DNA from: an uncultured Elusimicrobiaceae bacterium
GTDB lineage: Bacteria; Elusimicrobiota; Elusimicrobia; Elusimicrobiales; UBA9959
Assembly: GCA_964415175.1 (NCBI GenBank)
Contig: CAYPYG010000003.1
Span: 65,586-129,585 of the forward strand
Direction: 5' to 3'
DNA length: 64,000 bases
Of this stretch, positions 6,500-53,351 are shown one piece after another (position 1 is the first letter of the stretch; each line of letters starts with the position of its first letter). The notes below the pieces were generated by a model that saw only the letters and a list, made by a program, of their open reading frames with translations, was not told the origin of the DNA and made no database searches. A program made the position numbers and the translations under genes.

Positions 6500-6507
6500 G
6501 CCGGGGC

Positions 6508-20959: not shown

Positions 20960-21022
20960 GCTTTCGCCGGAAACGCCTCCCGTTTTTAGGTAAAATAAAG
21001 CGCGCGCGGAACGGCGTATAAT

Positions 21023-26403: not shown

Positions 26404-26405
26404 CG

Positions 26406-30712: not shown

Positions 30713-30723
30713 ATTGGCATAAG

Positions 30724-30766
30724 AGCCGCTGTGATGCATTCCGTAACCGCATTCGGCGGCTTTTTT
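30724..30766 (+). terminator. Terminator-like hairpin plus T-run (terminator or leader attenuator)
   Basis: AGCCGC (30724-30729) pairs with GCGGCT (30756-30761), with partial inner pairing (GATGC/GCATT). It is followed by TTTTTT (30761-30766). It lies downstream of the AT-rich element and 29 nt upstream of ATG 30795. Confidence 0.45.
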
Positions 30767-32099: not shown

Positions 32100-34283
32100 A
32101 TGAAAAGCACTTATACCGAACAGGTCGGCATGACCAACGCTCTTTCGATAGAGATCTTCATCACCAACCGCTGCAGCATGGACTGTTCCTACTGCTCGTC
32201 GCGGTACATGATACACGAGAAGGACGCCAGGCGCCTGAGCTTCGAGCAGCTCAAGGTCGCCTTCGACGCGCTGGACCGCGATCCCTACATCAAAAAGCAT
32301 TTCGGCGGCAAGGTGCACGTGGACCTGACCGGCGGCGAGCCGCTGATAGAGTACGAGACCATAAAACAGATCGTGGCCTACGTGCGGGCCAACCTGAAGC
32401 TCGAATACGAGTTCGAGCTGGAGACCAACGGCACGCTGCTCACCGAGGAGCGGATAAAGTACCTCATCGACAACAAGATAGAGATACGGCTCAGCCTCGA
32501 CGGCTACAAGGCCCAGAACGACAAGCACCGCCGGTTCCGCAACGCCAGCGACGCCTCCGCCTACGAGGCCATCATCCGCAAGATGAAAATGGGCCTTATC
32601 GGGACCAGGCACATGGACCTGGTCTATGTCGGGGCCATACTGGACGCGGAGGACTTCCAGAACCTGCCCAAGGTGATGGACTATTTCAAGAACGAACTGG
32701 GCTTCAGGCGCATGGAGATAGGTCCGTCGGCCTACGAGCTCTGGGACGAGGCGGCCATCGCCCGTCTCCGCAAGGCCCTGCGCAGCATGACGCCCGAGCT
32801 GATGGCCACGCTGGAGCACCAGATGGGCATCAATAAGCGCGAGTCCGTCTTCCACGAATTCCTCTTCACCCAGTCGAAGACCATCGGCACGGCCTACGAG
32901 GACCTGGCCAAGAAGACCATAACCCTGTTCTACGACGGCTGCTGGTACATGTGCGACTTCGTGGTCAAGCCGCCGCTCGACCCGAAGTTCCGCGTCGGGG
33001 AGCTGAAGAAAGGGATAGATTTCGGCCGCATCCGGACGATAAGCCGCTACCCGATGTTCAAGGAGATCTACTCCAAGTGCGAGCACCGCTCCGGGTTCTT
33101 CTCCCCCGTAGAGGGTTATTACTGGGGAGTGGTCCATAAGTTCACGCCGAAACAGCTCGACGACATGATGTGGAACACCTCCAACATGAACAAGGTCCTG
33201 GGCGAGGAGGTCGGCTGGTACACCAAGCTGCAGAAGACCTATTACGACCTTTACATGAAGCCCGGCTTCGGCGACTTCGGCCACGACCCCAAGCATAAGG
33301 CCGGCAAGGAGATGCGCACGCTCCGCCTGTCGGTCAGCGACTCGTCCGATATCGTCAGGCTGAGGGCCGCGGTGGACTTCTTCCTCTACTCGCCCGGCGA
33401 CCGCAAGCGCCTGGTCATGGACGCCACCGACAACGGCGCGGAGACCGCGCGGATAGTCGAAGGCATGGTCCTCTACTCGCTGGTCAAGACCGGCAAGGGC
33501 TACCTGGACAAGAAGCTCCGCCTGATGCTGGAGACCGACGCGAAGGGTTTCGACGACGACAACTGGCGCTTCCTCGACGACCACGGCGTGCAGGTCGGCA
33601 TCAAGGCGGCCTCCCGCTACAGCGCCGCCACGGCCTACCGCCGCAGCTACCAGATGGACGCCGCCCTGAACACGGTCGACAGCACCTACGCCGTGCCCGG
33701 CGTCACGCGGCGCAACGCGCGGAACCTGCCGACCCTGGTGGAGGCGGCCGTGCGCAACGGCTGCCGCTGGGTGCGGCTGGAACTGTCGGGCCGCGAGGAC
33801 TGGCGCGACGCCGACATCGCGGGGCTGCGCTCCGGGATGGAGAAGCTCGGCCAGGCGCTCGTGGCCGGCATCGCCAAAGGAGAGCCGGTTTACCTGCTTA
33901 ACTTCGAGGAGGCCGAAACCCCCGCCGGCTGCCCCGTCTTCGCCGATTCCTTCCTGGCCGACGGCGGCGGCGACTACAGGCTTGTCCCGCCGCAATGGCG
34001 CTATGACGGCCGCGGCGTGAAGGTCGGCGATTTCGACCGCGGCGTCGGGGAGCTCGCCGGCTGCGCCTGGTCCGCCGCTTCGGGGACCTGCGCGGCCTGC
34101 GCGCGCCGGCCGGCCGCCGCCGGTTACGACGCCTGGGCGGAGCGGGAATTCTCCGCGGGGCTGCGCAGGGCGCTGGAAGGCATCAGATACCTGGCCGCCA
34201 AAAAGAAGCCCTTCGCCGCCTACCTGGAGGCCCTGCGCTCCGACAGGGAGAGGGTCTCGGGGCTGCTCATAAACAAGAAATGA
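32100..34283 (+). CDS. Radical SAM paralog P6 fused to C-terminal Cys4 module
   Basis: SIEIFITNRCSMDCSYCSS; TGGEPLIEY; SLDGYKAQNDKHRRF; GFGDFGHDPKH; FLYSPGDRKRL. Then a ~220-aa extension carries AGCPVF...YRLVPPQWRYDGRGVKVG...GCAWSAASGTCAAC...FAAYLEAL. AAGGAGAGG RBS. Confidence 0.85.
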   Translation: MKSTYTEQVGMTNALSIEIFITNRCSMDCSYCSSRYMIHEKDARRLSFEQLKVAFDALDRDPYIKKHFGGKVHVDLTGGEPLIEYETIKQIVAYVRANLKLEYEFELETNGTLLTEERIKYLIDNKIEIRLSLDGYKAQNDKHRRFRNASDASAYEAIIRKMKMGLIGTRHMDLVYVGAILDAEDFQNLPKVMDYFKNELGFRRMEIGPSAYELWDEAAIARLRKALRSMTPELMATLEHQMGINKRESVFHEFLFTQSKTIGTAYEDLAKKTITLFYDGCWYMCDFVVKPPLDPKFRVGELKKGIDFGRIRTISRYPMFKEIYSKCEHRSGFFSPVEGYYWGVVHKFTPKQLDDMMWNTSNMNKVLGEEVGWYTKLQKTYYDLYMKPGFGDFGHDPKHKAGKEMRTLRLSVSDSSDIVRLRAAVDFFLYSPGDRKRLVMDATDNGAETARIVEGMVLYSLVKTGKGYLDKKLRLMLETDAKGFDDDNWRFLDDHGVQVGIKAASRYSAATAYRRSYQMDAALNTVDSTYAVPGVTRRNARNLPTLVEAAVRNGCRWVRLELSGREDWRDADIAGLRSGMEKLGQALVAGIAKGEPVYLLNFEEAETPAGCPVFADSFLADGGGDYRLVPPQWRYDGRGVKVGDFDRGVGELAGCAWSAASGTCAACARRPAAAGYDAWAEREFSAGLRRALEGIRYLAAKKKPFAAYLEALRSDRERVSGLLINKK

Positions 34284-35845
34284 CGGCCAGGACCCTGTCT
34301 CGCGGCAAAGGCGGCGGGCCCGCCGGCGGAAGCGCCGGCCGGGCCATCGCCCCGACGCTGCTCGAGGTGGAGGTCTATCTTACCAACCGCTGCAACCTCG
34401 CCTGCTCCTACTGTTCCGCCAGGCACATCATACGCGAGCGCGACGTCTCGCGGCTCACCGGCGCGCAGCTCGTGCGGGCGGTCGACCTGCTGGCCGGCGA
34501 CCCCGGGGTGCGCCGGCGCTACGGCGGGCGCGTCAGGCTGACCTTCAAGGGAGGGGAGCCTCTCCTGGAGTACGGCGCGATGAAGGCGGCGATAGACCGC
34601 GTCAGGGAGCGCCGCCTCGGCTTCGAGCTGGCGCTGACCACCAACGGCACGCTGCTGACCCCGGAGCGGATGGACTACCTGGCGGCGAACGGCGTGGAGG
34701 TCTGCGTCAGCATAGACGGCTACAAGGAGGTCAACGACCTCCACCGCAAGTTCAAAGGGGCGGGCGGGCGTTCCGTCTACGACGCGGTGATGGGGAACCT
34801 GCGGCGGCTGATGGGGGACGAACGCTACCGCCGGCGCATACACATAGGGACCACTTTCACCGCCGACACCATCGCCAGCGCGCCGGAAGTGGCCGAGTTC
34901 TTCAGCCGCCGCCTCGGCTTCCGCCAGCTCAAGATAGGCATAGAGGTCTACGGGATCTGGGGACGGGCCGGCATCGCCGCGCTCCGCCGGGCTTTGCGGG
35001 CTTTCAAGTCGAGGTTCCTCGCTTCCCTGCCCGCGGCGGCGGCCGCCGGCCGCGTGGAGGAGCTCCTCTCCGAGATACAGTTCTCCCAGTACATGCGCAA
35101 CCTGCCCAATGTGTGGGACGGGGAGGCCCCGCTCAACGAGCTGGCCGCCAATCCCCTCGCCCTTTTCTACGACGGCGCCTTCTATCCCTGCGACCTGGCC
35201 CTGAAACCGCCCCTGGAGGCCGGGTACCGCGTGGGCGACCTCCGCAGCGGCCTCGATCTCCGGCGCTTCGACGAGATATGCGCCCTGCCGCGCTTCGCCG
35301 GGCTGTCCCGGAAATGCGCCCATCCTTCCGGCCTGCTCTCCCCCGTCGAGCGCTGCTGCTGGGGGATAGTCAACGGCTACGGCCCCGCCAGGCTGGCGCG
35401 CCTGCTGGAGAACACCTCCGAGGTCAACGAGGTATTCGGGCGGGAGATGGGCCCGTATGCCAGGATGCAGAGGGTCTGCGAACAGCTTTTCATGACGCCG
35501 GGCTTCGGCGATTTCGCGCATGAGCCGAAGTACCGCGCCCCGCGCGAAGTCCGCTCGCTGCGGGTCCGGGCCGCGCCGGGCGGGGATATCGTGCGGCTCC
35601 GGGCGGCCGCCGACTACGCGCTCTGCTCCCCGGGTCCGCGCAAGAAGCTCGTTATAGAGACGCCCCGCGGCGGCGGGGCGCTGGACCTCGCCGAGGCCCT
35701 CTCGCTGTACGCCGCGGTGAAGGCCCGGTGCCTCGGCAAGAGGCTGCTGCTCGCGGTGCGCTCCCCGGCGGGCGCCGCCGACGCCGCGAGAAAAAGGTCC
35801 TTCGCGGAGCTGGGCGTGCGGCTGGAGGAAACATGGGGGGAGTGA
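34280..35845 (+). CDS. Radical SAM paralog P7
   Basis: LLEVEVYLTNRCNLACSYCSA; KGGEPLLEY; SIDGYKEVNDLHRKF; GFGDFAHEPKY; VKARCLGKRLLL. ATGA overlap at 34280-34283. Confidence 0.85.
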   Translation: MTARTLSRGKGGGPAGGSAGRAIAPTLLEVEVYLTNRCNLACSYCSARHIIRERDVSRLTGAQLVRAVDLLAGDPGVRRRYGGRVRLTFKGGEPLLEYGAMKAAIDRVRERRLGFELALTTNGTLLTPERMDYLAANGVEVCVSIDGYKEVNDLHRKFKGAGGRSVYDAVMGNLRRLMGDERYRRRIHIGTTFTADTIASAPEVAEFFSRRLGFRQLKIGIEVYGIWGRAGIAALRRALRAFKSRFLASLPAAAAAGRVEELLSEIQFSQYMRNLPNVWDGEAPLNELAANPLALFYDGAFYPCDLALKPPLEAGYRVGDLRSGLDLRRFDEICALPRFAGLSRKCAHPSGLLSPVERCCWGIVNGYGPARLARLLENTSEVNEVFGREMGPYARMQRVCEQLFMTPGFGDFAHEPKYRAPREVRSLRVRAAPGGDIVRLRAAADYALCSPGPRKKLVIETPRGGGALDLAEALSLYAAVKARCLGKRLLLAVRSPAGAADAARKRSFAELGVRLEETWGE

Positions 35846-37251
35846 AGCGCCCCGCCGGGCCGGAGCCGTTCCTGGTCGAAATATTCCTGACCGGCCGCTG
35901 CAACATGGACTGTACCTACTGCGCGGCGCGTTACATGATCCATGCGAAGGAGCCCGGCCTGCTGACTTTCGAACAGCTGAAGCGGGCGGCGGAAGTGATA
36001 GCCGCCGACCGCGTGGTGAGGCGGAAGCACGGGGGGAGGGTCAGGATCTCCTTCACCGGCGGCGAGCCGATGCTCGAGTTCGCTCTTATCGAGAAGGCGG
36101 TGCGCCATATGCGGGCGCGGTACCCGGACTGGGAATTCGACGTCTCCACCAACGGCACGCTCCTGACACCGGAGAGGCTCGAGTTCTTCCTGCGCAACGA
36201 CGTGGGGCTCAGCGTCAGCCTGGACGGTTTCGGCCGCGTCAACGATTCCCACCGCCGCTTCGTCTCGGGAAAGGCTTCCGCTTTCGGCGTGGTCGAGCGG
36301 AGCCTGCGCGCCGGCCTGGACGATCCGCGCTACCGCGACCTGTTCCACGTCGCCGCGACGCTGACCTCCCGCACCATCGGGGACCTGCCCGGCGTCGTGA
36401 GTTTCTTCAGGGAACGGACGGGGCTCAGGGAGCTCGAGATAGCGCTGGAGGCCTACGAGGACTGGGGACCGCCGGCGCGCGCCGGGCTGCGCCGCGTCCT
36501 GCGCGGGCTGGGGAGGAGATGCGCGGCGGCCCTGGAGCGCGGCGAAGGGGCCGAGGAGGCTTTCAGGGAATTCATCTTCACGCAGGCGAAGGGGGCCGAG
36601 GGACGGGAACTGACCCAAAAAGCGCTGACGCTCTTTTACGACGGCCGTTTCTACCCGTGCGACTTCGTGGTCAAGCCGCCGCTGGAGGAGGAATACTGCG
36701 TGGGGGACCTGGAGCGGGGACTGGACCACGGCCGCCTGGAAGCCCTGGAGCGGCTGCCTCTTTTCAGGGAGATAGAGAGGAAATGCGAGTTCAAGTCCGG
36801 CCTGCTCTCCCCCGTCGAGCGCTACTACTGGGGGATGGTGCACGGCTATTCGAGGGCCGGACTGGACGCCGTCCTTCTCAATACTTCCGAGGTCAACAGA
36901 ATCTTCCACGAGGAACTGGGACCTTACCTGCGCCTCCAGCGCGCCTACGCCAGGCTGTTCATGTCCCCCGGCTTCGGCGATTTCGTCCACGCCCCTAAAT
37001 TCGCCGGGAGCTCCGCCGCCGGCCTGCTCCGGCTGGCCGTTCCGGCCGGAGCCCCGCCCGCGCGGCTGCGGGCCGCGGCCGACTGGCAGCTCCACTCTCC
37101 CGGCGCCGGCGCGCTCAGGCTGGCCGCGGCGGACGGCCGTCCGGCGCGGGCCGCCGCCGGGGACATCGCTTTCTACGCCATGGTCAAATCGCGCATGCTG
37201 GGGAAGAGGTCGCGCGTGGAGCTGGAAGCGGACGGCGGGGGGCGGGCATGA
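35833..37251 (+). CDS. Radical SAM paralog P8
   Basis: Start at ATG 35833 (MGGVKRPAGPEPFLVEIFLTGRCNMDCTYCAA), a 13-nt overlap with P7. TGGEPMLEF; SLDGFGRVNDSHRRF; GFGDFVHAPKF; VKSRMLGKRSRV. Confidence 0.85.
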   Translation: MGGVKRPAGPEPFLVEIFLTGRCNMDCTYCAARYMIHAKEPGLLTFEQLKRAAEVIAADRVVRRKHGGRVRISFTGGEPMLEFALIEKAVRHMRARYPDWEFDVSTNGTLLTPERLEFFLRNDVGLSVSLDGFGRVNDSHRRFVSGKASAFGVVERSLRAGLDDPRYRDLFHVAATLTSRTIGDLPGVVSFFRERTGLRELEIALEAYEDWGPPARAGLRRVLRGLGRRCAAALERGEGAEEAFREFIFTQAKGAEGRELTQKALTLFYDGRFYPCDFVVKPPLEEEYCVGDLERGLDHGRLEALERLPLFREIERKCEFKSGLLSPVERYYWGMVHGYSRAGLDAVLLNTSEVNRIFHEELGPYLRLQRAYARLFMSPGFGDFVHAPKFAGSSAAGLLRLAVPAGAPPARLRAAADWQLHSPGAGALRLAAADGRPARAAAGDIAFYAMVKSRMLGKRSRVELEADGGGRA

Positions 37252-38648
37252 TAGTCAACCCTCTGCGCGCCGACCACCGCCCGCGGGAGGAGTTCCTGCT
37301 CGAGGTCTTCCTTACCAACCGCTGCAACCTGGACTGCTCGTACTGCTCCTCGCGGCGGATGATAGACGAGCCGGCGCGGCGCGCCCTTTCTTTCGGGCAG
37401 GTGCGGCGCGCGGTGGACGTCTTCGCCGCCTACGGGCGCCGCCGCGGCGCGCGCCAGGAGCGCACCGTCTTTTTCACCGGCGGCGAGCCTTTCCTGGAAT
37501 ACGACGTTCTCCGGCGCTCCGTGGAGTACATCGACTCCCTGCCGGGCGGGTTCCGCGTCAGGATAGCCACCAACGCGACGATGCTGGACCCGGCGAGGGT
37601 GAAGTTCCTGCTGGACCATGACGTCCGGATATTCGTCAGTCTCGACGGCTGCCGGAAAGCGCACGACCGCCACCGGGTCTCCCGCGGCGGCCGCGGCTCC
37701 TTCACGGAGATAGACCGGGCGTTGCGCCGGCTGCCGCGCTCCGTGCGCGGCGGGCCCAATTTCTGCGTTTCCGCCACCTTCACCTCCGAGACCGCGAAGT
37801 GGCTTCCCGAGAGCCTGGATTACTTCCGGGACCTGGGCATAAGAGTGGTCGAGATCTGCCCCGAGGCCTACGAGGTCTGGCGGCCGGCGGACATAGCCCG
37901 CGCGGCCGCGGTGCTGGCCCGCGTGGCGAGGGAGCGCCTCTACCGCCGCTTCGAAGGGGAGGCCGGCGGGCCGCAGTTCGTGTTCTCCAATAGTTCGGCC
38001 CCCGACAACTCGAAATGGGCCGTCGCCGACTACAGGGATACCCTGCTGCACAGCGTCAGTTTCATGTACGACGGCTTTTTCTATCCCTGCGAGGCGGTCT
38101 TCGGCGGCGGGACGGAGGCCGCCTACCGCATCGGCGACGCGGAGCGCGGCATAGACCGGCGGCGGGCGGAGAAAGTGTACGCGGCCGCGCTCGCGCGCAT
38201 ACGCCGCTGCGCCCCCTCGGTCGGCACGCTGCTGACGGCAGGGCGCTATTATTACGCCGTGAACGCCGGGCTCGACCCGGCGGAATATTTCGACAACGCC
38301 CGCCGGGTTAACGAGGCCTTCGACTCGGCGTTGGGAGGCTGCCTGCGCGCCCAGCTGCTGCATGACCGCGTCACGGCGCTGCCCGATTTCGGCGATTTCG
38401 CTCACGCTCCCCGCCTCGCCTCCCGGCGGGAGCTCCCCGCCCTAAGGCTGGAAGCTGCGCCCGGCTCCGACCCGGCCCGCCTGCGGGCCTGCGTCGACCA
38501 TTTCCTGTACTCTCCCGGCGCGCGAAAGGCGCTGGCCATCCGCCGCGCCGCCGGCGCGGAGGAAGTATCCTCGGCCCTGGCGCTGTACGCCCTTTCCAAG
38601 GCGGGCCGCCTGCGCAAAAGACTTTCCGTCAGGACGGAGGCGGCGTGA
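37248..38648 (+). CDS. Radical SAM paralog P9
   Basis: FLLEVFLTNRCNLDCSYCSS; TGGEPFLEY; SLDGCRKAHDRHRVS; DFGDFAHAPRL; FLYSPGARKAL. ATGA overlap at 37248-37251. Confidence 0.85.
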   Translation: MIVNPLRADHRPREEFLLEVFLTNRCNLDCSYCSSRRMIDEPARRALSFGQVRRAVDVFAAYGRRRGARQERTVFFTGGEPFLEYDVLRRSVEYIDSLPGGFRVRIATNATMLDPARVKFLLDHDVRIFVSLDGCRKAHDRHRVSRGGRGSFTEIDRALRRLPRSVRGGPNFCVSATFTSETAKWLPESLDYFRDLGIRVVEICPEAYEVWRPADIARAAAVLARVARERLYRRFEGEAGGPQFVFSNSSAPDNSKWAVADYRDTLLHSVSFMYDGFFYPCEAVFGGGTEAAYRIGDAERGIDRRRAEKVYAAALARIRRCAPSVGTLLTAGRYYYAVNAGLDPAEYFDNARRVNEAFDSALGGCLRAQLLHDRVTALPDFGDFAHAPRLASRRELPALRLEAAPGSDPARLRACVDHFLYSPGARKALAIRRAAGAEEVSSALALYALSKAGRLRKRLSVRTEAA

Positions 38649-42315: not shown

Positions 42316-42352
42316 ATACTCGGAGGCGGGGCGACCGCCACGGAGGCGGACA

Positions 42353-43135: not shown

Positions 43136-43187
43136 CGGTCCGCCCGCCGCCGGCTTCCCGCTCCCGTTCCCAGCGGTCCGCCACATT

Positions 43188-47283: not shown

Positions 47284-48689
47284 GCCGCGCTGTCCCTCTC
47301 CCGGCCGCGCGCCGGCTGCGCGCCGTCCCCTCTTCCCTGGACATATACATGACGGACGCCTGCAATATGCGCTGCGGCTACTGCGCCAGCGCCAGGTTCA
47401 TAGAGGGCGGCGGGGCCAGGACGCTGCCGCCGCGGCTCCTGCTGAGGGGAGTGGACGCCTTCGCGGCGCTGGTCGCCCCCCGCCGCGGCGCGGCCGATCC
47501 TGCCGCGGTGAGGGAGATCTCCTTCACCGGCGGCGAGCCGCTGCTCCGCTGGGACCTGCTGAGGGATTCGGTCCGGGCGATAAAGCGCGAATACCCCTGG
47601 CTCAAGCAGACCGTCTTCACCAACGGCACTCTGCTCACGCCGGAAAAGGCGGACACGCTGCTGCGCGCGGGCGTCAGGATAGTGGTGAGCCTCGACGGCG
47701 GCCGCGCCGTCAACGACCGGCACCGCCGGCTGGCCGACGGCCGCCCCGGCTTCGCGGCCGTGGCCGCGAACCTGCGCCGCCTCGGCGCCGCCCGCCGCGC
47801 GGAGCTGCACCTGATGGCCACCTTTACCTCCGCTACCGCCGGGAAACTGGTCGATACCGTGCGGCTGTTCAGGACCTTCGGCTGCCGCGACATACATCTC
47901 GGCCTGGACCTTTACGAGGACTGGTCCCCCGCGGCCCTGGCCCGCCTGCGGGCCGCCCTGGCGGAACTGCGCGGCTACTGCCTGCGCGGCGGCGCCGCCG
48001 TCCGGGGGCCGGGCGGGGACTGGGATTTCAACTTCTATTTCAAGGACCGCGTGTCCGCCTGCCTCGACCTGACGCCGTCGAACTCCTTCACCCTCTCGCC
48101 CGACGGCTTCTTCTATCCCTGCGACGAGCTCTGCATCTCGGCCGCGGACCCGGCGAAGTACGCCGTCGGGTCGGCGGAGAGCGGCCTGGACCTGCGCCGG
48201 CTGGAACGGGTCTACTCCGCCGTGGAGCGGCGCGTGAGGGGGCTGGACCTGGTCAACGGCGTGCTTTCGCCCATAGACAGGTATTTCCGCGCGGTACTGG
48301 ACGGGCGCGACCCGTCCGCCTCCCTGCGGGCCGGCGGGCGGGTGACGCGCGTCTTCCTGGAGGAGCTCGGCGGGCTGGTGGAAGTGGAGCGGCTTTTCAA
48401 ACTGCTGGTGCGCGCGCCCGGTTTCGGCGATCTCATGCACCGGCCCCGCCACGCCCTGCGCGCCGGGGCCCGCCGCGCGCGGCTGTCCGCGCCGGCTTCG
48501 CCCGCCGCGCTGGCGGCTTCGCGGGCCGCCGCGGACCTGCTGCTTTACTCCCCGGGGAAGCGCAAGGAACTGGTCCTGCGGAGCGAAGGGGCTTTCGGCG
48601 AGGCGGCCCGCGGCCTCGCCCTCTACGCGGCGCTCAAGGGCGCGCGGCTCGGCGGGCGGACCCGGGTGGGCCTGGAGGCGGGCCGGTGA
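47280..48689 (+). CDS. Radical SAM paralog P14
   Basis: SLDIYMTDACNMRCGYCAS; TGGEPLLRW; SLDGGRAVNDRHRRL; GFGDLMHRPRH; LLYSPGKRKEL; LKGARLGGRTRV. GTGA overlap at 47280-47283. Confidence 0.85.
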   Translation: MSRAVPLPAARRLRAVPSSLDIYMTDACNMRCGYCASARFIEGGGARTLPPRLLLRGVDAFAALVAPRRGAADPAAVREISFTGGEPLLRWDLLRDSVRAIKREYPWLKQTVFTNGTLLTPEKADTLLRAGVRIVVSLDGGRAVNDRHRRLADGRPGFAAVAANLRRLGAARRAELHLMATFTSATAGKLVDTVRLFRTFGCRDIHLGLDLYEDWSPAALARLRAALAELRGYCLRGGAAVRGPGGDWDFNFYFKDRVSACLDLTPSNSFTLSPDGFFYPCDELCISAADPAKYAVGSAESGLDLRRLERVYSAVERRVRGLDLVNGVLSPIDRYFRAVLDGRDPSASLRAGGRVTRVFLEELGGLVEVERLFKLLVRAPGFGDLMHRPRHALRAGARRARLSAPASPAALAASRAAADLLLYSPGKRKELVLRSEGAFGEAARGLALYAALKGARLGGRTRVGLEAGR

Positions 48690-50077
48690 AAAAGAACCCC
48701 GCCCTTCCGCTCTATCCGCGGGCCGAATTCCCCCGGGAGCTGGACGTCTGCCTGACCGACGCCTGCAACCTCGACTGCCGCTACTGCTATTTCACCGCCA
48801 AGGCCAGGACCGCGCCGTCCTCCCTCTCGCCGGCGCAGGTTGAGCGGGCGCTGGACCTTTACCTCGAGCGCCTGCCGGCCCGGCGCGTGCAGAAGTTCAG
48901 CTTTTCCGGCGGCGAGCCGCTGCTGCGCTGGGACTCGCTCATAAGCGGCGTGGCCTCCGCCCGCCGCCGGCTGGGCCCGCGGCCCAATATCGAAGTTTTC
49001 ACCAACGGCACCCTGCTCGACCGGCGTAAGGCGGAGGCCCTGCTGGCGCACGACCCCGAGCTGGTCATAAGCCTGGACGGGCCGCGCGCGGTCTGCGACG
49101 CGGGCCGCCGCTTCTACGGCCGCGGCGGCTCGGTATTCGACGCCGTCGACCGCAATCTCCGCGCGCTCGGGCGGGGACTGGTCTCGCGCTGCTTCGCCGG
49201 CTCCACTTTCAGCGCCGCGACGGTCTCCAGGATGCGCGAGAGCGTGGAGTACCTGCTGGAGCGCGGCTTTAAATGCGTGATAGTGGACCTGGACGTCCTG
49301 GCGCGCTGGGACCGGCGCGCGCTGGACGTCCTGCGCCGGCAGGCGGAGGGCCTCAAGAAACTTTACTCCTCTTCCATGAACCTGGGTTTCGGCGAGGTGC
49401 AGCAGCGGCTGCGCTTCGACTTCCTGATCTCGCGGGAGGAGCTGCGGCAGGTGGCGCGCCCCGCGGGGCTCAGGGAACTTTCCCTGGCGCCCGACGGGAA
49501 GTTCTACCCCAGCGGGCTGGTCTCCGGGCGCGGCGCGGAGAAGGCGCGCTACGCCGTCGGCAGCCTCGCGGAAGGTTTCGACACGGACAGGATGAACGCC
49601 GTGCTGGGCGAGCTGCGCGGCTATTTCGGCCGGCACGCCAGGAGCGGCTACAACGGCTGCCCCACCCACGTCTATTTCGCCTGCCGCCTGGAGGGGCGCT
49701 CCGCGGAGGAGGTCTTCGATTCGGGCGAACGCCTGTTCGGGGCGCTGGACCCGGTAGTGGGCCCCGTCATAGATTTCGAGCTGCTGCAGAACTCCCTGGC
49801 CTCGGCGAAGGACCTCGGGGATTTCGATCACCCGCCGCGGCTGGCGCCCGCCGCGGGCCCGGCGGAGCTGAGGCTCTCCCTTTCTCCCGGGGCGGGCCGG
49901 GCCAGGGACGCCGCGGACGCGGCGCTTTATTCGCCCGGCCCCTGCAAGCGCCTGGAACTGGCGGCCGCGGAGAACGACCCGCCCGACGCGCTGCGCCGCC
50001 TCGCGGCCTATTCCCTGATGAAGGCGCGGCTGCTGGGGAAGAAAGTCAGGCTCGCGGTCGCGGCGGGGGCCGATTAA
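48686..50077 (+). CDS. Radical SAM paralog P15
   Basis: GTG start with GTGA overlap at 48686-48689. ELDVCLTDACNLDCRYCYF; SGGEPLLRW; SLDGPRAVCDAGRRF; DLGDFDHPPRL; ALYSPGPCKRL; MKARLLGKKVRL. Confidence 0.85.
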   Translation: MKKNPALPLYPRAEFPRELDVCLTDACNLDCRYCYFTAKARTAPSSLSPAQVERALDLYLERLPARRVQKFSFSGGEPLLRWDSLISGVASARRRLGPRPNIEVFTNGTLLDRRKAEALLAHDPELVISLDGPRAVCDAGRRFYGRGGSVFDAVDRNLRALGRGLVSRCFAGSTFSAATVSRMRESVEYLLERGFKCVIVDLDVLARWDRRALDVLRRQAEGLKKLYSSSMNLGFGEVQQRLRFDFLISREELRQVARPAGLRELSLAPDGKFYPSGLVSGRGAEKARYAVGSLAEGFDTDRMNAVLGELRGYFGRHARSGYNGCPTHVYFACRLEGRSAEEVFDSGERLFGALDPVVGPVIDFELLQNSLASAKDLGDFDHPPRLAPAAGPAELRLSLSPGAGRARDAADAALYSPGPCKRLELAAAENDPPDALRRLAAYSLMKARLLGKKVRLAVAAGAD

Positions 50078-50094
50078 AGTATCATATTCACGGC

Positions 50095-51885
50095 ATGGCC
50101 ATGGACGATACGCAACTCAGGGCGCTTTTCGGGCTGATGGACGCGGAGAACCCGCCCGAATACCCGCCCCATTACCCGCCGCCCGCGCTCTGGAAAAAGA
50201 CCTTCTCCGGCGCGGACGCCGCCGCCGCCTGGCGGCGCGCGCTGGCTCGCCGCGGCGACCTGGTCCTCTACGTCCACCTGCCTTTCTGCCGAGAGGTCTG
50301 CGCTTTCTGCGGCTTCTACGCCCGCCCCTGCCCCGGTCCCGGCGCCGTCGACGATTATCTCTCCGCGCTGGAGAGGGAGGCGGCCCTGCTCTCGCCCCTT
50401 TTCGCGGGCCGCCGCTTCAAATGGCTCTGTTTCGGCGGCGGCACGCCGTCGCTGCTCTCCGGCCCGCAGCTGGAGCGCCTCTTCGACGCGGTGAAAGGGA
50501 ACTTCCGGCCCGCGCGGGGGGCCCGCACCGCCTTCGAATCGCACCCGGACAGCCTGGACCCGGCCAAGCTGCGGCTGCTCAAGAAGCTCGGCGTGGACTG
50601 GCTTTCCATCGGCGTGCAGACCTTCGACGACGGGGTGCTGAAAAAGAACGGCCGCCGGCAGGACAATTCCAGGGTGCCGGGCCTGGTGCGCGCCGCCCGG
50701 GCCGCGGGCATAAAGAACGTCCAGCTCGACCTCATCGCCGGCCTGCCCTTCCAGTCCCGGGAGGCTTTCGAGGCCGACGTGGAGAAGGCCGCGCGGCTGG
50801 ACCCCGAGCGCATCTACCTCTTCCCGTTCCAGGCCAAGGAACGCGTGCGGCTGAAGGCGCGGCAGGCGCCCTGGCTGTGGGAGGCCTACCGCCGCGCGGT
50901 GGAGTCGCTCTCCCGGCGGGGCTACGAGCTCAGCTGCGGCCGCTGGCTTTATAAAAGGAGCGGCGGCGACTGGCCTTACAGCTACGACCAGGGCGAGCGC
51001 ATGTCCCGCGATTTCTACTCGGTGCTGGGTCTCGGCGCCGGCGCCATCTCCTACGCCAGGTACGGCGCGCGTTACCAGAACCTGGCGGACCCCGCCGACT
51101 ACGCGCGGGCGCTGTCCGGCGGCCGCCTGCCCGCGGCCAGGGGCTGCCGGCTGGGCGAAAAGGAGGAGGCGCTCAATTTCCTCCTGCTCAATTTCCTCCA
51201 GCGCGGCGCGCTGGACCGGCGGGAATTCCGCTCCGTCTTCGGCCGCGGCCCGCGCGGCGCCTTCGGCCGGGTCCTGGACTCGCTGGCCGCCGACGGTACG
51301 CTGGTCGCCTCCCGGGACGGCTGGCTCCTGGACGACAGGGAGAACGGCCTGTTCCGTCTCAGGAAGGCCTTTTACCCGGCGCGGCCGCTGACCGCCGCCG
51401 CGCGCGGCTGCGGCCGGCGCCTGGTCTCCGCGGCGCGCGCCGCGCGCCGGCCTTCCGCCGCGACGGCAGGGAGCGGCCGCGACGGCGCCCCCGGCACGCT
51501 CGTTTTCGAAGCGGGGCGCGCCCCTTTCGCCGCGCTCGCGCCCGCGCTGCTGCGGGAGATAAAAGCGCGCCGTCCCGTGACGGTCCTTCTCTACTGCGCC
51601 GGGCCCGGGCCGGGCCCCGCGCTGCCGCGCCTGGCGGAGCTGGTCGGCCGCGCGGGGCTGAAGGCGGCCGTCAACCTGCCGCCCTGCCTGCTGCCCGGCC
51701 TGCCGCGGCTGCCACAGGCCGCGCCGGCCGGGAGCGGCGATCCCGGCGTCTTCCGGCCGGAAGGCTGGGTCAAGCCGGCGCGCTGCGCCGACTGCGCGCT
51801 GCAGCTGGAATGCCCGGGCCTGGACGCCGCCTACGCCGCGCGCCACGGCGCGCGGGCGGTGAAGCCGCTGAGGAGGCGCCCGTGA
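50095..51885 (+). CDS. HemN/HemW-family radical SAM protein with ~130-aa Cys-containing C-terminal extension
   Basis: Start at ATG 50095 (MAMDDTQ). LYVHLPFCREVCAFCGFY matches the HemN-type cluster motif. Also GGGTPSLL and SIGVQTFDD. The tail (~51493-51882) has NLPPCLLPG...CADCALQLECPG (Cx2Cx5C), as in 3-791 and 6508-7434. Confidence 0.85.
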   Translation: MAMDDTQLRALFGLMDAENPPEYPPHYPPPALWKKTFSGADAAAAWRRALARRGDLVLYVHLPFCREVCAFCGFYARPCPGPGAVDDYLSALEREAALLSPLFAGRRFKWLCFGGGTPSLLSGPQLERLFDAVKGNFRPARGARTAFESHPDSLDPAKLRLLKKLGVDWLSIGVQTFDDGVLKKNGRRQDNSRVPGLVRAARAAGIKNVQLDLIAGLPFQSREAFEADVEKAARLDPERIYLFPFQAKERVRLKARQAPWLWEAYRRAVESLSRRGYELSCGRWLYKRSGGDWPYSYDQGERMSRDFYSVLGLGAGAISYARYGARYQNLADPADYARALSGGRLPAARGCRLGEKEEALNFLLLNFLQRGALDRREFRSVFGRGPRGAFGRVLDSLAADGTLVASRDGWLLDDRENGLFRLRKAFYPARPLTAAARGCGRRLVSAARAARRPSAATAGSGRDGAPGTLVFEAGRAPFAALAPALLREIKARRPVTVLLYCAGPGPGPALPRLAELVGRAGLKAAVNLPPCLLPGLPRLPQAAPAGSGDPGVFRPEGWVKPARCADCALQLECPGLDAAYAARHGARAVKPLRRRP

Positions 51886-53351
51886 AGAAAAAGGAGACGC
51901 TGCCGATAGGCTCCTTCGACATCTGCCTGTCCAACCGCTGCAACCTGGCGTGCCGGTACTGCTATTTCGATTCCATAAACCGGGGCGCGCCGCGGTTCCT
52001 GGACTTCGCGGCCGTGAAGAAGGCCGTCGACGCCTATGTCTCCCTCGTTTCCGTCAGGGGCATAGACAAGATCAGCGTCGCGGGCGGCGAGCCGTTCCTG
52101 GATTTCCCGCTGCTGCTGAAGATAGCGAAGTACATACGGCGTTCCTGCGGGCCGCGGACGGAGATAGAGGTCTTCACCAACGGCACGCTGGCGACGCCGG
52201 AGAAAGTGCGGCGCCTGCTTCCCTACACCGGCAAGATAGTGGTGAGCCTGGACGGCGGAAAGGGGAGCAACGATCTCAACCGGGTCTTCCTGAAAGGCGG
52301 AGGTTCGGTCTTCGAGGCCGTGATGAACAATCTCCGCGGCCTCACCGCGGCGGAGCGGCTGAAGGTGTGCGCCAGCATGACGGTGACGGCCGCCACCGCC
52401 GGCGGCCTCTGTTCCAATGTGCGGTTCCTGCGCGGGCTGGGCCTGGGCGAGGTGCAGATAAACCTGAACCTGCTCGAGCGGTGGTCCGCCCCGTCGCTGG
52501 AGCGTCTGCGCGCCTCGGTCCGGGAACTGAAGTCCTATTACGGCGCGCTGGCGGCCGCGCGGCTGCGCTCCTTCGAGGGTTTCCGCTTCGGCCTGGAGTA
52601 CATCCTGCTCAAATGGGACGAGACTCTCAGCGAGAGCGGGGTCTTCAAGGAGATCTCCGTCGCGCCGGACGGTCGTTTCTATCCCTGCGGCATAGTCTCC
52701 ACTTACGGCCCGCAGAAAGAGGTTTTCGCCGTCGGTTCGCTGGAAAAGGGGTTCGACCGCCGCCGTCTTCGTTCGCTGCGCGGCAAGGCCGTCCGCGCCA
52801 TGCTGCCCGCGGACCGCGGGATAGGGCTGCTGGAATACATCCCCAACCCGATGCTGCTCTATTTCGAGACCCGGCTCAAAGGCGAGGACCTGCGGGAGGT
52901 CTTCGCCAACGCGCGCCGCGTCTTCAAGGTCTTCTACGACGAGCTTTCCGTCTTCCTGCGGCTGGAGAGGTTCTTCGACATCCTCTCCAGCGACCCGCTG
53001 GTGGGCGACTTCTCCCACGAGCCGCCCTTCAGGTCCGGAAAGGGACTGCGGTCCCTGGCCGTCGCCATGGGCGAGCCCGGCCGACCGGCCGCCAAGGCCT
53101 GCGCCTGCGGCAAGGGCTGGGTCGGTTTCCCGGGCCTGGCGCAGCGGCGGCGCGCGGCCGACCTGCTGCTCTATTCCCCCGGCGGGAACAAGGAGCTGCG
53201 GCTGCGCTCGGAGCGTCCGTCGGAGGAGTTCGAACTGACCGGCTCCGCGGCCGTCTACGCGGCCCTCAAGGCCCGCGCGCTGGGAGGAAAGCTGAAGGTG
53301 AAAGTGGAACTCCCGCCGGGCGGCGTCACTTCTTCTTCTTCACGTACTTGA
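51882..53351 (+). CDS. Radical SAM paralog P16
   Basis: GTG start with GTGA overlap at 51882-51885. SFDICLSNRCNLACRYCYF; AGGEPFLDF; SLDGGKGSNDLNRVF; LVGDFSHEPPF; LLYSPGGNKEL; LKARALGGKLKV. Confidence 0.85.
   Translation: MKKKETLPIGSFDICLSNRCNLACRYCYFDSINRGAPRFLDFAAVKKAVDAYVSLVSVRGIDKISVAGGEPFLDFPLLLKIAKYIRRSCGPRTEIEVFTNGTLATPEKVRRLLPYTGKIVVSLDGGKGSNDLNRVFLKGGGSVFEAVMNNLRGLTAAERLKVCASMTVTAATAGGLCSNVRFLRGLGLGEVQINLNLLERWSAPSLERLRASVRELKSYYGALAAARLRSFEGFRFGLEYILLKWDETLSESGVFKEISVAPDGRFYPCGIVSTYGPQKEVFAVGSLEKGFDRRRLRSLRGKAVRAMLPADRGIGLLEYIPNPMLLYFETRLKGEDLREVFANARRVFKVFYDELSVFLRLERFFDILSSDPLVGDFSHEPPFRSGKGLRSLAVAMGEPGRPAAKACACGKGWVGFPGLAQRRRAADLLLYSPGGNKELRLRSERPSEEFELTGSAAVYAALKARALGGKLKVKVELPPGGVTSSSSRT

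What the first reader, a model, noticed from the sequence alone, without database searches (positions are those of the whole stretch)
32100..53351. 21-kb co-directional chain of radical SAM paralogs linked by 4-nt start/stop overlaps
The junctions are as follows.
- P6/P7: ATGA at 34280.
- P7/P8: 13-nt overlap at 35833-35845.
- P8/P9: ATGA at 37248.
- P9/PEP-enzyme: GTGA at 38645.
- PEP-enzyme/P10: ATGA at 40939.
- P11/P12: ATGA at 44543.
- P12/P13: ATGA at 45862.
- P13/P14: GTGA at 47280.
- P14/P15: GTGA at 48686.
- HemN-like/P16: GTGA at 51882.

The same pattern occurs at P4/P5 (GTGA 29424) and P1/TPR (ATGA 15663). Only three small gaps exist in this chain (42316-42352, 43136-43187, 50078-50094). 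Such systematic coupling implies a single long polycistron and equimolar production. That is consistent with a multi-enzyme assembly line or complex rather than independent enzymes.
Basis: seen in the sequence. Interest (0 to 1): 0.8.

Follow-up and report, generated by a model that had tools for sequence, protein, structure and literature searches.

The report
Radical-SAM paralog chain, HxS-peptide supercluster
The tightly packed 21-kb string of related radical-SAM enzyme genes is real, and it belongs to a roughly 70-kb cluster in uncultured Elusimicrobia (about 30 such enzymes plus three nitrogenase-like reductases) that most likely remodels a ribosomal peptide of about 22 His-Gly-Ser repeats, not a tetrapyrrole as previously proposed.

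Summary
Observation confirmed. 11 of 16 same-strand junctions in 28039-53351 are 4-nt overlaps, against 5 of 21 elsewhere (p=0.009).

The genes are 16 ancient paralogs (24-53% identity) of one unnamed radical-SAM subfamily. It resembles CteB/PapB-type peptide maturases but lacks auxiliary-cluster cysteines and an N-terminal RRE, and has its own C-terminal domain. Order and overlaps are conserved, with 1:1 positional orthologs down to 52-70% identity, so the paralogs are specialised, not redundant.

The locus is the published "Group VI nitrogenase-like + radical-SAM suite" of groundwater Elusimicrobia (Méheust 2020; function still unknown in 2026).

New here: in a colinear close relative the cluster starts about 19 kb upstream with HxsB-HxsD-HxsA, where HxsA is a leader plus 22 His-x-Ser repeats. 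Two unrelated metagenomic loci carry NflH-NflD-NflK with an HxsA gene directly downstream. Six accessory families of the window recur in another HxsA cluster.

Best reading: a hugely expanded HXS-type peptide-maturation system. A polycistron is plausible. Equimolar production and a physical complex are unproven.

The parts
28039..29427 (+). P4, radical-SAM paralog (462 aa); first gene of the co-directional run
   Evidence: Pfam Radical_SAM 6.8e-15. GGAGG 8 nt upstream. Ortholog in L010 at 56% and in L015 at 71%.
29424..30692 (+). P5, pseudo-radical-SAM paralog (422 aa) lacking CX3CX2C; GTGA overlap with P4
   Evidence: Alignment A1 shows the cluster motif deleted and there is no CX3CX2C. It is retained in L015 (57%) and L010 (41%) at the same position.
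30721..30766 (+). Conserved hairpin plus U-run between P5 and the reductase gene; possible terminator or attenuator
   Evidence: Fold energy -24.9 kcal/mol, z = -3.35, 0 of 200 shuffles as stable. Conserved in L015. No Rfam match.
30795..32090 (+). Aldo/keto reductase (431 aa) with a ~150-aa C-terminal extension
   Evidence: Pfam Aldo_ket_red 3.8e-34. The C-terminus weakly resembles the P6 C-terminal/unk260 domain.
32100..34283 (+). P6, paralog fused to a 250-aa C-terminal half-barrel/Cys domain (727 aa)
   Evidence: Residues 482-726 are 40% identical to the 260-aa ORF (1e-50). AF2 model: core pLDDT 85-95, extension poorly predicted.
34280..35845 (+). P7, paralog (521 aa); ATGA overlap with P6
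35842..37251 (+). P8, paralog (469 or 472 aa; start GTG 35842 or ATG 35833)
37248..38648 (+). P9, paralog (466 aa)
   Evidence: Homologs are named Elusimicrobiales.
38645..40942 (+). PEP-utiliser-type phosphotransferase (765 aa): ATP-grasp piece plus swivelling His domain, no PEP/pyruvate barrel
   Evidence: Pfam PEP-utilizers 7e-10 and PPDK_N 3.5e-7. The GSHAA His motif aligns to PEP synthase. Only 7 homolog clusters among 5.8 billion.
40939..42315 (+). P10, paralog (458 aa)
42353..43135 (+). unk260: stand-alone homolog of the P6 C-terminal domain, with conserved C...CX9CX2C
   Evidence: No Pfam or NCBIfam hit. Homology and cysteine pattern shown. Marker found in only 3 species-level genomes, all Elusimicrobia.
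43188..44546 (+). P11, paralog (452 aa)
44543..45865 (+). P12, paralog (440 aa)
45862..47283 (+). P13, paralog (473 aa)
47280..48689 (+). P14, paralog (469 aa)
48686..50077 (+). P15, paralog (463 aa)
50095..51885 (+). HemN-like radical-SAM enzyme (596 aa), a different family
   Evidence: NCBIfam STM4012 family 2e-58 and hemN 1e-45, both below cut-off. 42%-identical homolog in the HxsA cluster L020 (5e-93).
51882..53351 (+). P16, paralog (489 aa); last gene of the chain
14149..15666 (+). P1, paralog (505 aa); ATGA overlap with a TPR protein (15663-17210)
24946..27842 (-). P2 and P3, paralogs on the opposite strand (53% identical), divergent from P4
11895..14106 (+). rs357 (rSAM, 357 aa) and unk344 (membrane-anchored protein with 14 Cys); both families recur next to HxsA genes elsewhere
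   Evidence: The rs357-like gene follows HxsA in L020 (33%, 2e-53). An unk344-like gene lies directly upstream of HxsA in L020, L022 and L023.
877..4669 (+). NflH::NflD fusion plus NflK, set 1 (nitrogenase-like, Group VI type)
   Evidence: Pfam Fer4_NifH 4e-65 plus Oxidored_nitro.
17215..24945 (+). NflH::NflD plus NflK, sets 2 and 3
   Evidence: Pfam. P-loop and the GVGCAG / VVCGGF cysteines align to NifH.
4725..7434 (-). unk276 + U32 (UbiU-like) + rSAM308 (HxsC-like) triad
   Evidence: Conserved in L014. A U32 gene is also present near the distant chain L008.
63..791 (+). 3' part of a ~336-aa rSAM/SPASM gene cut by the window start; its family is repeated in HxsA clusters

Best explanation
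**What it is.** The chain is the downstream half of a conserved biosynthetic supercluster of about 70 kb in uncultured Elusimicrobiales. This is the 'Group VI nitrogenase-like + radical-SAM suite'. I read it as a hugely expanded His-Xaa-Ser (HXS-type) peptide-maturation system.

**Shown**
- Thirteen of the genes in 28039-53351 (12 with an intact CX3CX2C motif plus the dead P5), and P1-P3 elsewhere in the window, belong to one unnamed rSAM subfamily. It has a CteB/PapB-like core, a vestigial SPASM start (DGxFYPC), no auxiliary-cluster cysteines and no N-terminal RRE. It also has a family-specific C-terminal beta-alpha-beta-alpha-beta domain with the motifs FGDFxHxP and FLYSPG.
- The paralogs are old and non-redundant, with one-to-one positional orthologs across species.
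- The genes are translationally coupled. Shine-Dalgarno sequences often sit inside the conserved C-terminal Leu-Glu-Ala codons of the upstream paralog.

**Inferred**
- The run from about 30795 to 53351 is one transcript.
- The substrate is an exported ribosomal peptide, HxsA. It consists of a signal-like leader, about 22 His-Gly/Ser-Ser repeats and a GGWC tail. In the closest relative it is encoded about 19 kb upstream of the window, behind HxsB and HxsD.
- The upstream HxsB/C/D-type enzymes bind and start modifying the peptide.
- The P paralogs each use SAM-derived 5'-deoxyadenosyl radicals for a distinct step or position on the His/Ser repeats or on later intermediates. They may act as hetero-oligomers with the dead paralog P5 and the Cys4 protein unk260.
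- The PEP-type enzyme phosphorylates a hydroxyl (Ser) to make a leaving group.
- The aldo-keto reductase reduces a carbonyl.
- The HemN-like enzyme adds carbon.
- The three NflHDK sets carry out ATP-driven low-potential reductions of the resulting unsaturated or heteroaromatic rings.
For: **Identity of the family**
- Pfam, NCBIfam and PDB profile hits. CteB is the closest solved structure at 6.7e-38, then ChlB, anSME and TigE. PapB is the best NCBIfam hit, far below cut-off.
- Alignment motifs and cysteine loss. AF2 model.
- The family is small: about 50 clusters at 50% identity among 1.84 billion proteins.

**Conserved order and orthology.**

**Coupling.**. No internal promoter or terminator signal.

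**Literature context.**

**HXS link**
1. L021 comes from WAS_Bin_5, whose other contig carries the chain at 85-98% protein identity (PEP enzyme to P16: 92-98%). It is colinear with the window and its upstream DNA at 88-92% identity. It starts with rSAM/SPASM - HxsD (PF27806) - a 139-aa HxsA with 22 HxS units ending GGWC. An HxsB follows, above the NCBIfam equivalog cut-off (425 vs 370 bits).
2. L056 and L051 are unrelated metagenome loci. They carry rSAM - NflH - NflD - NflK with an HxsA-like gene directly downstream on the same strand.
3. The HxsA cluster L020 shares at least 6 families with the window: unk344-like (4e-14), rs357-like (2e-53), HemN-like (42%, 5e-93), rSAM308-like, the ~300-aa rSAM/SPASM family, and a distant P-family member, P0087.
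4. An unk344-like gene sits directly upstream of HxsA in L020, L022 and L023.
5. The nearest outgroup rSAM, P0040, lies in an Hxs cluster.

**No tetrapyrrole pathway genes.** None besides the HemN-like genes in about 72 kb.
Against: - No HxS-repeat ORF lies inside the window. I could not fetch the upstream 20 kb of the window's own contig, so HxsA is inferred from a relative with ~90% DNA identity.
- HxsA is 30-70 kb away from the chain.
- The P family lacks an RRE and the auxiliary clusters typical of peptide cross-linkers.
- Its C-terminal domain shows no relation to HxsD (hhalign probability 0.3%).
- The P-like neighbours of HxsA in most other loci match only the N-terminal core. P0087 lacks the FGDFxHxP motif.
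- All nitrogenase-like enzymes of known function act on small molecules.
- AKR, PEP-type phosphotransferases and U32 enzymes are more typical of small-molecule chemistry.
- Nearly identical repeats do not obviously need 16 different enzymes.
- No transcript, protein or product data exist.
Confidence: 0.55

Rival explanations
1. Tetrapyrrole or novel-cofactor pathway, the published hypothesis. The Nfl enzymes reduce a tetrapyrrole ring as DPOR, COR and CfbCD do. The rSAM paralogs, like AhbC, AhbD and NirJ, remodel its side chains one position at a time.
For: - Proposed by Méheust et al. and repeated in the 2026 Chem Rev review.
- NflK's best NCBIfam hits are DPOR BchN/BchB, though weak at 46 bits.
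- HemN-like genes are present.
- SPASM-group rSAMs include AhbC, AhbD and NirJ, which give weak hits of about 45 bits.
- There is no RRE, and no precursor gene inside the window.
Against: - About 72 kb contains no chelatase, methyltransferase (CobA/CysG) or Hem biosynthesis gene.
- The paralogs score two to three times higher against peptide maturases (PapB 115 bits, CteB 134 bits) than against NirJ or AhbD.
- HxsA genes lie directly next to NflK in two independent loci and at the head of the cluster in the close relative.
Confidence: 0.2
2. Another small-molecule natural product, for example an amino-acid-derived or lipid product. It would be built by sequential radical steps, with the Hxs genes upstream being an unrelated neighbouring system.
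For: - AKR, PEP-type phosphotransferase, U32/UbiU-like, YgeW carbamoyltransferase, carbamate-kinase-like, threonine-synthase-like, aminotransferase V and M20 peptidase genes are interspersed.
- A distant PEP-enzyme homolog sits beside a PUFA-type polyketide synthase.
Against: - Families from the window recur inside other HxsA clusters.
- The whole ~19 kb between HxsA and NflHD1 in L021 is co-directional and rSAM-rich.
- The YgeW/carbamate-kinase module looks like ordinary catabolism.
Confidence: 0.12
3. Ordinary compact operon of independently acting or partly redundant paralogs. On this view the 4-nt overlaps merely reflect genome compaction and tandem duplication, and carry no implication for stoichiometry or assembly.
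For: - Overlaps of this kind occur at 5 of 21 other junctions in the window.
- Physical neighbours are each other's closest paralogs, as tandem duplication predicts.
- Paralog remnants and extra copies show turnover.
Against: - Ortholog identity (52-96%) far exceeds paralog identity (24-53%), with strict positional conservation. Each copy is therefore individually maintained.
- Overlaps and GGAGG sites are enriched in the chain.
Confidence: 0.08
4. Same substrate, different role. Like the E. coli HxsABCD system, the cluster is an anti-phage defence whose exported, modified HxS-repeat effector blocks phage DNA entry.
For: - HXS is an experimentally shown defence system whose rSAM enzymes mature HxsA (PMC13128918).
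- The HxsA leaders here look signal-like.
Against: - Canonical HXS has four genes in over 99.8% of cases, and 99.7% are in Pseudomonadota.
- PADLOC gives only generic viperin-type rSAM hits.
- A 70-kb, roughly 30-rSAM, ATP-costly system is out of scale for known defence islands.
Confidence: 0.1

Closest known systems
HXS (His-Xaa-Ser) system HxsABCD (TIGR03977/TIGR03978 families; Li et al., Nat Commun 2026, PMC13128918)
   Same: - A ribosomal HxS-repeat protein is matured by paired rSAM enzymes with a small partner, HxsD.
- The close relative's cluster begins with HxsB (above equivalog cut-off), HxsD and HxsA.
- rSAM308 and several upstream genes are HxsC-like.
- The precursor has an N-terminal signal-like leader.
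   Different: - About 30 rSAM genes instead of 2.
- Three nitrogenase-like reductases, a PEP-type phosphotransferase, an AKR and a U32 enzyme are added.
- HxsA is a short peptide with 22 contiguous HGS/HSS units and a GGWC end. It is not a peptidoglycan-binding protein with 5 repeats.
- The host is Elusimicrobia, not Pseudomonadota.
- None of the four canonical genes lies in the window.
- The P family is not HxsB or HxsC (far below cut-offs).
Group VI nitrogenase-like (NFL) gene neighbourhoods of groundwater Elusimicrobia (Méheust et al. 2020, bioRxiv 10.1101/765248 / ISME J; Chem Rev 2026, PMC13474568)
   Same: - Same phylum and high GC.
- Several NflH/D/K copies next to many rSAM genes, including a HemN-like one.
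- NflH keeps the P-loop and both cluster cysteines.
   Different: - The papers count up to 13 rSAM genes near nifH and propose a tetrapyrrole substrate.
- In the text and supplement legends I could read, they do not define the paralog family, its conserved order and overlaps, the dead paralog, the Cys4 partner or any HxS-repeat precursor.
CteB / PapB / CcpM / QhpD thioether-forming rSAM-SPASM peptide maturases, and anSME
   Same: - Best sequence and fold matches for the catalytic core: CteB 5WGG at 6.7e-38 and Foldseek 1e-15; PapB model at 1e-33.
- The DGxFYPC start of the SPASM domain is retained.
   Different: - No N-terminal RRE.
- The seven SPASM cysteines are missing.
- An extra ~130-aa C-terminal domain is present.
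- All scores are far below family cut-offs, so thioether chemistry is unlikely.
Rifampicin phosphotransferase / PigC-RedH type PEP-utiliser enzymes (for the gene at 38645-40942)
   Same: An ATP-grasp piece plus a swivelling phospho-His domain, without a PEP/pyruvate barrel. The His motif is conserved.
   Different: - Only weak, partial matches (E of 1e-5 to 1e-14, far below cut-offs).
- A ~190-aa N-terminal region is unique and is absent from the 558-aa orthologs.

Membership tests
Radical SAM superfamily (P6-P16, P1-P4) | CX3CX2C cluster motif and GGE SAM-binding motif in a partial TIM barrel | tested here: met
   15 of 16 paralogs keep CX3CX2C and P5 does not. Pfam Radical_SAM E of 1e-13 to 1e-20. 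AF2 core pLDDT 85-95, with Foldseek hits to rSAM structures.
SPASM/twitch rSAM peptide maturases (CteB, PapB, SCIFF type) | C-terminal SPASM domain with 7 cysteines binding two auxiliary [4Fe-4S] clusters | tested here: not met
   No Pfam SPASM hit. Only the YPC cysteine is kept, and only in some paralogs, and no other conserved Cys is seen.
SPASM/twitch rSAM peptide maturases (CteB, PapB, SCIFF type) | N-terminal RRE (leader-peptide recognition) domain | tested here: not met
   The paralogs start 10-35 residues before the cluster motif. Matches begin at position ~80-100 of RRE-bearing models and at CteB residue 99.
SPASM/twitch rSAM peptide maturases (CteB, PapB, SCIFF type) | Score above the curated family cut-off | tested here: not met
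   Best is PapB at 96-115 bits against a cut-off of 340. All other models are also far below.
HXS (His-Xaa-Ser) system | HxsA precursor with tandem His-Xaa-Ser repeats in the locus | tested here: inconclusive
   Absent from the window. Present (22 repeats) at the head of the colinear cluster in the relative WAS_Bin_5, L021. The window's own upstream DNA beyond 9 kb could not be fetched.
HXS (His-Xaa-Ser) system | HxsB and HxsC radical-SAM maturases | tested here: inconclusive
   - HxsB is above cut-off in L021 (425 vs 370 bits).
- HxsC-like genes there are below cut-off (160 vs 268).
- In the window only rSAM308 is HxsC-like (63 bits), and the P family hits HxsB weakly.
HXS (His-Xaa-Ser) system | HxsD small partner protein | tested here: inconclusive
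   PF27806 is recorded for the 97-aa gene in L021. There is none in the window. The P C-terminal domain is unrelated to HxsD.
HXS (His-Xaa-Ser) system | Anti-phage activity through an exported effector | not testable with these tools
   Known only from E. coli experiments. PADLOC gives generic viperin-like rSAM hits only.
Group VI nitrogenase-like (NFL) cluster | NflH with P-loop and the two [4Fe-4S] cysteines (Cys97/Cys132 equivalents) | tested here: met
   GKGGVGKST, GVGCAG and VVCGGF align to NifH. Fer4_NifH E of 1e-56 to 1e-65.
Group VI nitrogenase-like (NFL) cluster | Highly divergent NflD/NflK, in Elusimicrobia, flanked by many rSAM genes | tested here: met
   - Oxidored_nitro hits only.
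- Best named relatives are DPOR subunits at about 46 bits.
- Homologs are named Elusimicrobiales/Elusimicrobia.
- 18 intact rSAM genes lie in the window.
Group VI nitrogenase-like (NFL) cluster | Placement in the Group VI clade of a NifH/NifD phylogeny | not tested
Assignment rests on taxon, context and the literature description.
Single polycistronic operon | One promoter, no internal terminators, continuous transcript | tested here: inconclusive
   - Consensus scans show nothing above shuffled expectation inside the chain.
- A conserved hairpin plus U-run lies just upstream at 30721-30766.
- No RNA data are available.
Tetrapyrrole biosynthesis cluster | Tetrapyrrole core genes (Hem, CobA/CysG, chelatase) or tetrapyrrole-specific rSAMs above cut-off | tested here: not met
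   None in the window or in the 19 kb upstream of the relative. HemN, NirJ and AhbD models are all below cut-off.

The most novel reading that the evidence does not exclude
Group VI nitrogenase-like reductases are not tetrapyrrole enzymes. They would be the first members of the nitrogenase superfamily to act in the maturation of a ribosomal peptide. Together with about 30 radical-SAM enzymes, including the 16-paralog chain, they would convert an exported poly(His-Gly-Ser) peptide into a new, heavily rearranged and reduced product. That product could be a peptide-derived cofactor, a metal-binding polymer or an envelope material. The paralog chain would work as a position- or step-specific assembly line.
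Probability: 0.4. Interest if true: 0.9.

Novelty: new variant of a known kind. Interest (0 to 1): 0.72.

Why it matters
- The function of Group VI nitrogenase-like systems is listed as unknown in the 2026 review of the superfamily. The only hypothesis there is a tetrapyrrole cofactor.
- Linking these clusters to a concrete, genetically encoded substrate, an HxS-repeat peptide, makes the question directly testable. One can co-express HxsA with defined modules and follow mass shifts.
- If correct, it extends nitrogenase-type ATP-driven reduction to peptide chemistry.
- It would define one of the largest known sets of radical-SAM enzymes devoted to one product.
- It would show that the four-gene HXS defence system of Proteobacteria has giant relatives with probably different roles.
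- The conserved chain of 16 specialised paralogs, with a dead member and natural fusions, is also a good system for studying how radical-SAM enzymes diversify and cooperate.

Tried and rejected
1. **Precursor peptide inside the window.** No intergenic space exceeds 200 nt in the chain, and no HxS or GGWC ORF occurs in six frames.
2. **P C-terminal domain as a fused HxsD or RRE.** hhalign probability 0.3%. The predicted beta-alpha-beta-alpha-beta topology differs from an RRE.
3. **Thioether/SPASM chemistry.** The auxiliary-cluster cysteines are absent.
4. **Known RNA elements for the hairpin at 30721-30766 or anywhere in the window.** No Rfam hits.
5. **Defence-system membership.** PADLOC gives only weak viperin-type hits.
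6. **unk260 as a firm [4Fe-4S] protein.** The cysteines are lost in the L010 P6 ortholog and in the L008 extensions, so this stays tentative.
7. **PUFA/lipid lead.** It comes from the distant PEP-enzyme homolog P0007. It is a single, 41%-identical case without rSAM neighbours.
8. **Broad marker search with a 10-sequence alignment.** It failed for lack of conserved columns and was redone with 7 sequences.
10. **Walking upstream on the window's own contig.** I used a 90%-identical relative instead.
12. **Literature linking nitrogenase-like enzymes to RiPPs.** None of the 12 top-ranked papers listed (of 218 holding at least 3 of the 4 terms) mentions 'nitrogenase-like'.

Full report
**1. The observation**

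The window is about 68% GC. I re-derived genes from codon-position GC and re-read each junction. So are the two cited outside the span (GTGA at 29424, ATGA at 15663) and the three gaps (37, 52 and 17 nt).

P7/P8 can also be read as a GTGA 4-nt overlap if P8 starts at GTG 35842. In the co-directional run 28039-53351, 11 of 16 junctions are -4 overlaps, against 5 of 21 elsewhere in the window (Fisher p=0.009).

A full GGAGG lies within 21 nt upstream of 10 of 16 chain genes, against 4 of 29 others (p=0.002). It often sits inside the conserved C-terminal Leu-Glu-Ala codons (CTGGAGGC) of the upstream paralog.

**2. What the genes are**

Pfam finds one Radical_SAM domain in P6-P16 and in P1-P4. The 765-aa gene has PEP-utilizers + PPDK_N. 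Nothing matches the 260-aa ORF at 42353-43135.

P1-P16 align end to end at 24-53% identity. Fifteen keep CX3CX2C. P5 has lost it.

The best named relatives are peptide maturases, all far below family cut-offs:
- PapB at 96-115 bits against a cut-off of 340.
- CcpM, SCIFF/CteB, QhpD and HxsB.
- Matches start after the RRE of those models.

A profile of the 16 paralogs finds CteB as the closest solved structure (6.7e-38), then ChlB, anSME and TigE. An AlphaFold2 model of P6 has core pLDDT of 85-95, and Foldseek gives the same ranking.

The SPASM start (DGxFYPC) survives but the auxiliary-cluster cysteines do not. Residues about 375-470 form a family-specific beta-alpha-beta-alpha-beta domain with the motifs FGDFxHxP and FLYSPG.

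The full-length family is tiny. About 50 clusters at 50% identity occur among 1.84 billion proteins. Where named, they are all Elusimicrobia.

The 260-aa ORF is homologous to the C-terminal extension of P6 (40% identity, 1e-50). It carries C...CX9CX2C. In a distant lineage (L008/L019) a shorter version of this domain is fused to nearly every paralog.

The PEP-type enzyme keeps the phospho-histidine motif but has no PEP/pyruvate barrel. It has only seven homolog clusters in 5.8 billion.

**3. Conservation**

The window is identical to contigs from three sources. Relatives show the same order and the same overlaps:

| Locus | Protein identity to window |
|---|---|
| L011 | 85-98% |
| L004 | 81-96% |
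| L007 / L012 | 74-87% |
| L010 / L013 | 52-70% |

- Each gene's best match is its positional counterpart. A neighbour-joining tree pairs the orthologs.
- The 52-70% lineage has one extra paralog between P9 and the PEP enzyme, and a shorter PEP enzyme.
- Physical neighbours are each other's closest paralogs: {P6, P7, P8, P2, P3}, {P10-P14} and {P15, P16}. The chain therefore grew by tandem duplication long ago, and every copy has since been kept.
- The dead paralog P5 is also kept, though it evolves faster.
- Only three species-level genomes out of 185,579 carry the unk260 marker.

Order is not shuffled.

**4. Transcription**

Consensus scans find no excess of promoter-like or terminator-like sites inside the chain. 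Just upstream, between P5 and the aldo-keto reductase, lies a stable hairpin followed by U6.
- It spans 30721-30766, with a fold energy of -24.9 kcal/mol and z = -3.35.
- A conserved AT-rich element precedes it, and both are conserved in L015.
- It matches no Rfam family.

The unit may therefore start at 30795, or be attenuated there. This is inference, because no RNA data were available.

**5. Context and literature**

The window also holds:
- three NflH::NflD fusions, each followed by NflK;
- a U32/UbiU-like + unknown + HxsC-like rSAM triad;
- a YgeW carbamoyltransferase / carbamate-kinase-like / threonine-synthase-like module;
- two TPR proteins;
- a membrane-anchored protein with 14 Cys, unk344.

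This is the situation described by Méheust et al. [quoted passage not shown] A July 2026 review still lists Group VI as 'unknown cofactor synthesis'. So the existence of the rSAM suite is already known. Its anatomy and substrate are not.

**6. The turn: an HxS-repeat peptide**

- The nearest outgroup rSAM (P0040) and a distant family member (P0087) both lie in clusters with HxsD, HxsB-like enzymes and short ORFs ending in His-x-Ser repeats, for example ...GHGSHVSHGSHGSHGSHGSHGSHGSHRRGGWCGG.
- The P0087 cluster (L020) shares at least six families with the window: unk344-like (4e-14), rs357-like (2e-53), HemN-like (42%, 5e-93), rSAM308-like, the ~300-aa rSAM/SPASM family, and the P family.
- Upstream of the window, the same genome has at least seven more rSAM genes.
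- In the close relative WAS_Bin_5 the upstream region reads: rSAM/SPASM - HxsD - a 139-aa HxsA - 11 more rSAM-family genes (10 with an intact CX3CX2C) - NflHD1.
  - This relative shows 88-92% DNA identity and is colinear. Its other contig carries the chain.
  - HxsA has a signal-like leader, 22 HxS units and an ARGGWC end.
  - The rSAM genes include an HxsB above the NCBIfam equivalog cut-off.
- A metagenome scan with this HxsA found 42 related precursor loci.
  - Two unrelated ones carry an HxsB-like rSAM - NflH - NflD - NflK with the HxsA gene directly downstream on the same strand: L056 (62% GC) and L051 (71% GC).
  - In three loci an unk344-like gene sits directly upstream of HxsA.
- The E. 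coli four-gene HXS system was shown in 2026 to be an anti-phage system. There HxsB and HxsC mature HxsA through N-terminal processing and a +8 Da (+C/-4H-type) change on an SHRSS motif. HxsC binds HxsD. Over 99.8% of such systems have just four genes.
- None of the 12 top-ranked papers listed for 'nitrogenase-like' with RiPP terms mentions 'nitrogenase-like'.

**7. Most likely mechanism**

*Shown:*
- the family identity;
- loss of the auxiliary clusters;
- conserved order;
- translational coupling;
- recurrence of Nfl genes and of the window's accessory families next to HxsA genes.

*Inferred:* the supercluster matures an exported HxS-repeat peptide.
- Hxs-type enzymes engage the leader.
- The P paralogs perform distinct radical steps on His/Ser residues or on later intermediates.
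- The PEP-type enzyme phosphorylates a hydroxyl.
- The reductase and the HemN-like enzyme handle carbonyl chemistry and carbon addition.
- The three NflHDK sets deliver ATP-driven reductions.

A hetero-oligomeric arrangement is suggested by four things: the natural two-paralog fusion P0042, seen on several contigs; relatives with three or four rSAM domains in one chain; the retained dead paralog; and the Cys4 partner. It remains untested.

*Weak points:*
- HxsA is inferred from a relative and lies 30-70 kb from the chain.
- The P family has no RRE and is unrelated to HxsD.
- Nearly identical repeats do not obviously need 16 enzymes.
- Known nitrogenase-like enzymes act on small molecules.

I give this explanation 0.55, the published tetrapyrrole idea 0.2, another small molecule 0.12, and a plain operon of independent paralogs 0.08. 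An anti-phage role (0.1) concerns the cluster's role rather than its substrate, so it is not exclusive of the main reading.

**8. Verdict**

The feature is a new, extreme variant of known kinds, namely HXS-type rSAM peptide maturation and the Group VI NFL cluster. Its interest lies less in the 4-nt overlaps than in what the chain belongs to.

Noticed in passing
window 30697-30766: A conserved AT-rich element (ATTTTATTGTATCATT) is followed by a strong hairpin plus U6 between P5 and the reductase gene. Both are conserved in L015, and neither matches Rfam. It could be a terminator for P4-P5 or a leader attenuator for the chain.
   Followed up: partly
L056 9984-17651 (minus strand); L051 1365-8886 (minus strand): These are compact operons from unrelated metagenomes: HxsB-like rSAM - NflH - NflD - NflK with an HxS-repeat peptide gene directly downstream. 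The L056 leader contains a twin-arginine-like TRRALV...AQA signal. They look like a minimal version of the Nfl-HxsA association.
   Followed up: partly
window 7530-11865: A YgeW knotted carbamoyltransferase (688 bits, above cut-off), a carbamate-kinase-like gene, a threonine-synthase-like gene and a poly-gamma-glutamate-hydrolase-like gene sit between Nfl set 1 and P1. An M20 peptidase and a class V aminotransferase lie upstream of the window. The set resembles the E. coli ygeW-ygeY-yqeA neighbourhood (from my own knowledge), so it may be an unrelated catabolic insert.
   Followed up: partly
window 877-4669, 17215-20959, 21023-24945: In all three sets NflH and NflD are fused into one 822-873-aa protein, while they are separate genes in L056. 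Two NflHD/NflK junctions are identical 23-nt overlaps and the third is a 1-nt overlap.
   Followed up: no
window 4725-7434 (minus strand): The triad unknown-276-aa + U32 (UbiU-like, weak) + HxsC-like rSAM is linked by 4-nt overlaps. It is conserved in L014, and a U32 gene also lies beside the distant chain L008. It may be an O2-independent hydroxylase module.
   Followed up: no
GCA_029557855.1 contigs JAKQHU010000158.1 (L003) and JAKQHU010000115.1 (L007): The same MAG holds two versions of the chain, with PEP enzymes 100% and 75% identical to the window. Either two strains were binned together or the chain is duplicated in the genome.
   Followed up: no
P0042 (964 aa); P0075, P0081, P0088 (962-1324 aa): P0042 is a natural in-frame fusion of two P-type paralogs, found on 4 JGI contigs and 1 ENA contig. 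The three distant relatives each carry three or four complete rSAM domains with their own CX3CX2C in a single polypeptide.
   Followed up: partly
L010 828-1427 (minus strand); L015 3874-4383 (minus strand): These are truncated paralog remnants (169-199 aa) that keep only the C-terminal FGDFxHxP/FLYSPG domain. There are also extra paralogs: one between P9 and the PEP enzyme in L010/L013, and a third P3-like gene in L015. Together they indicate birth-and-death turnover at the edges of the array.
   Followed up: no
L035 (151-kb contig), L026, L033: HxsA-like precursors vary widely, from 8 to 56 HxS units, with C-terminal ends GGWC, GSW, GSY, SCY or GCY. L033 has two tandem precursor genes.
   Followed up: no
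window 53326-58588: Directly after the chain come a convergent TPR + SpoIID-domain protein (overlapping the P16 stop by 26 nt), an ECF sigma / zf-HC2 anti-sigma pair and a subtilase. These are envelope-related genes that could process or regulate an exported product.
   Followed up: no
window 58711-59607 (minus strand): A 298-aa protein has a C-terminal Ubiquilin-1-like / STI1-DP domain hit (2e-10), which is unusual in bacteria.
   Followed up: no
L006 (ERZ909598 groundwater contig): The most distant PEP-enzyme homolog (41% identity) sits next to a PUFA-type polyketide synthase, not next to rSAM genes.
   Followed up: no
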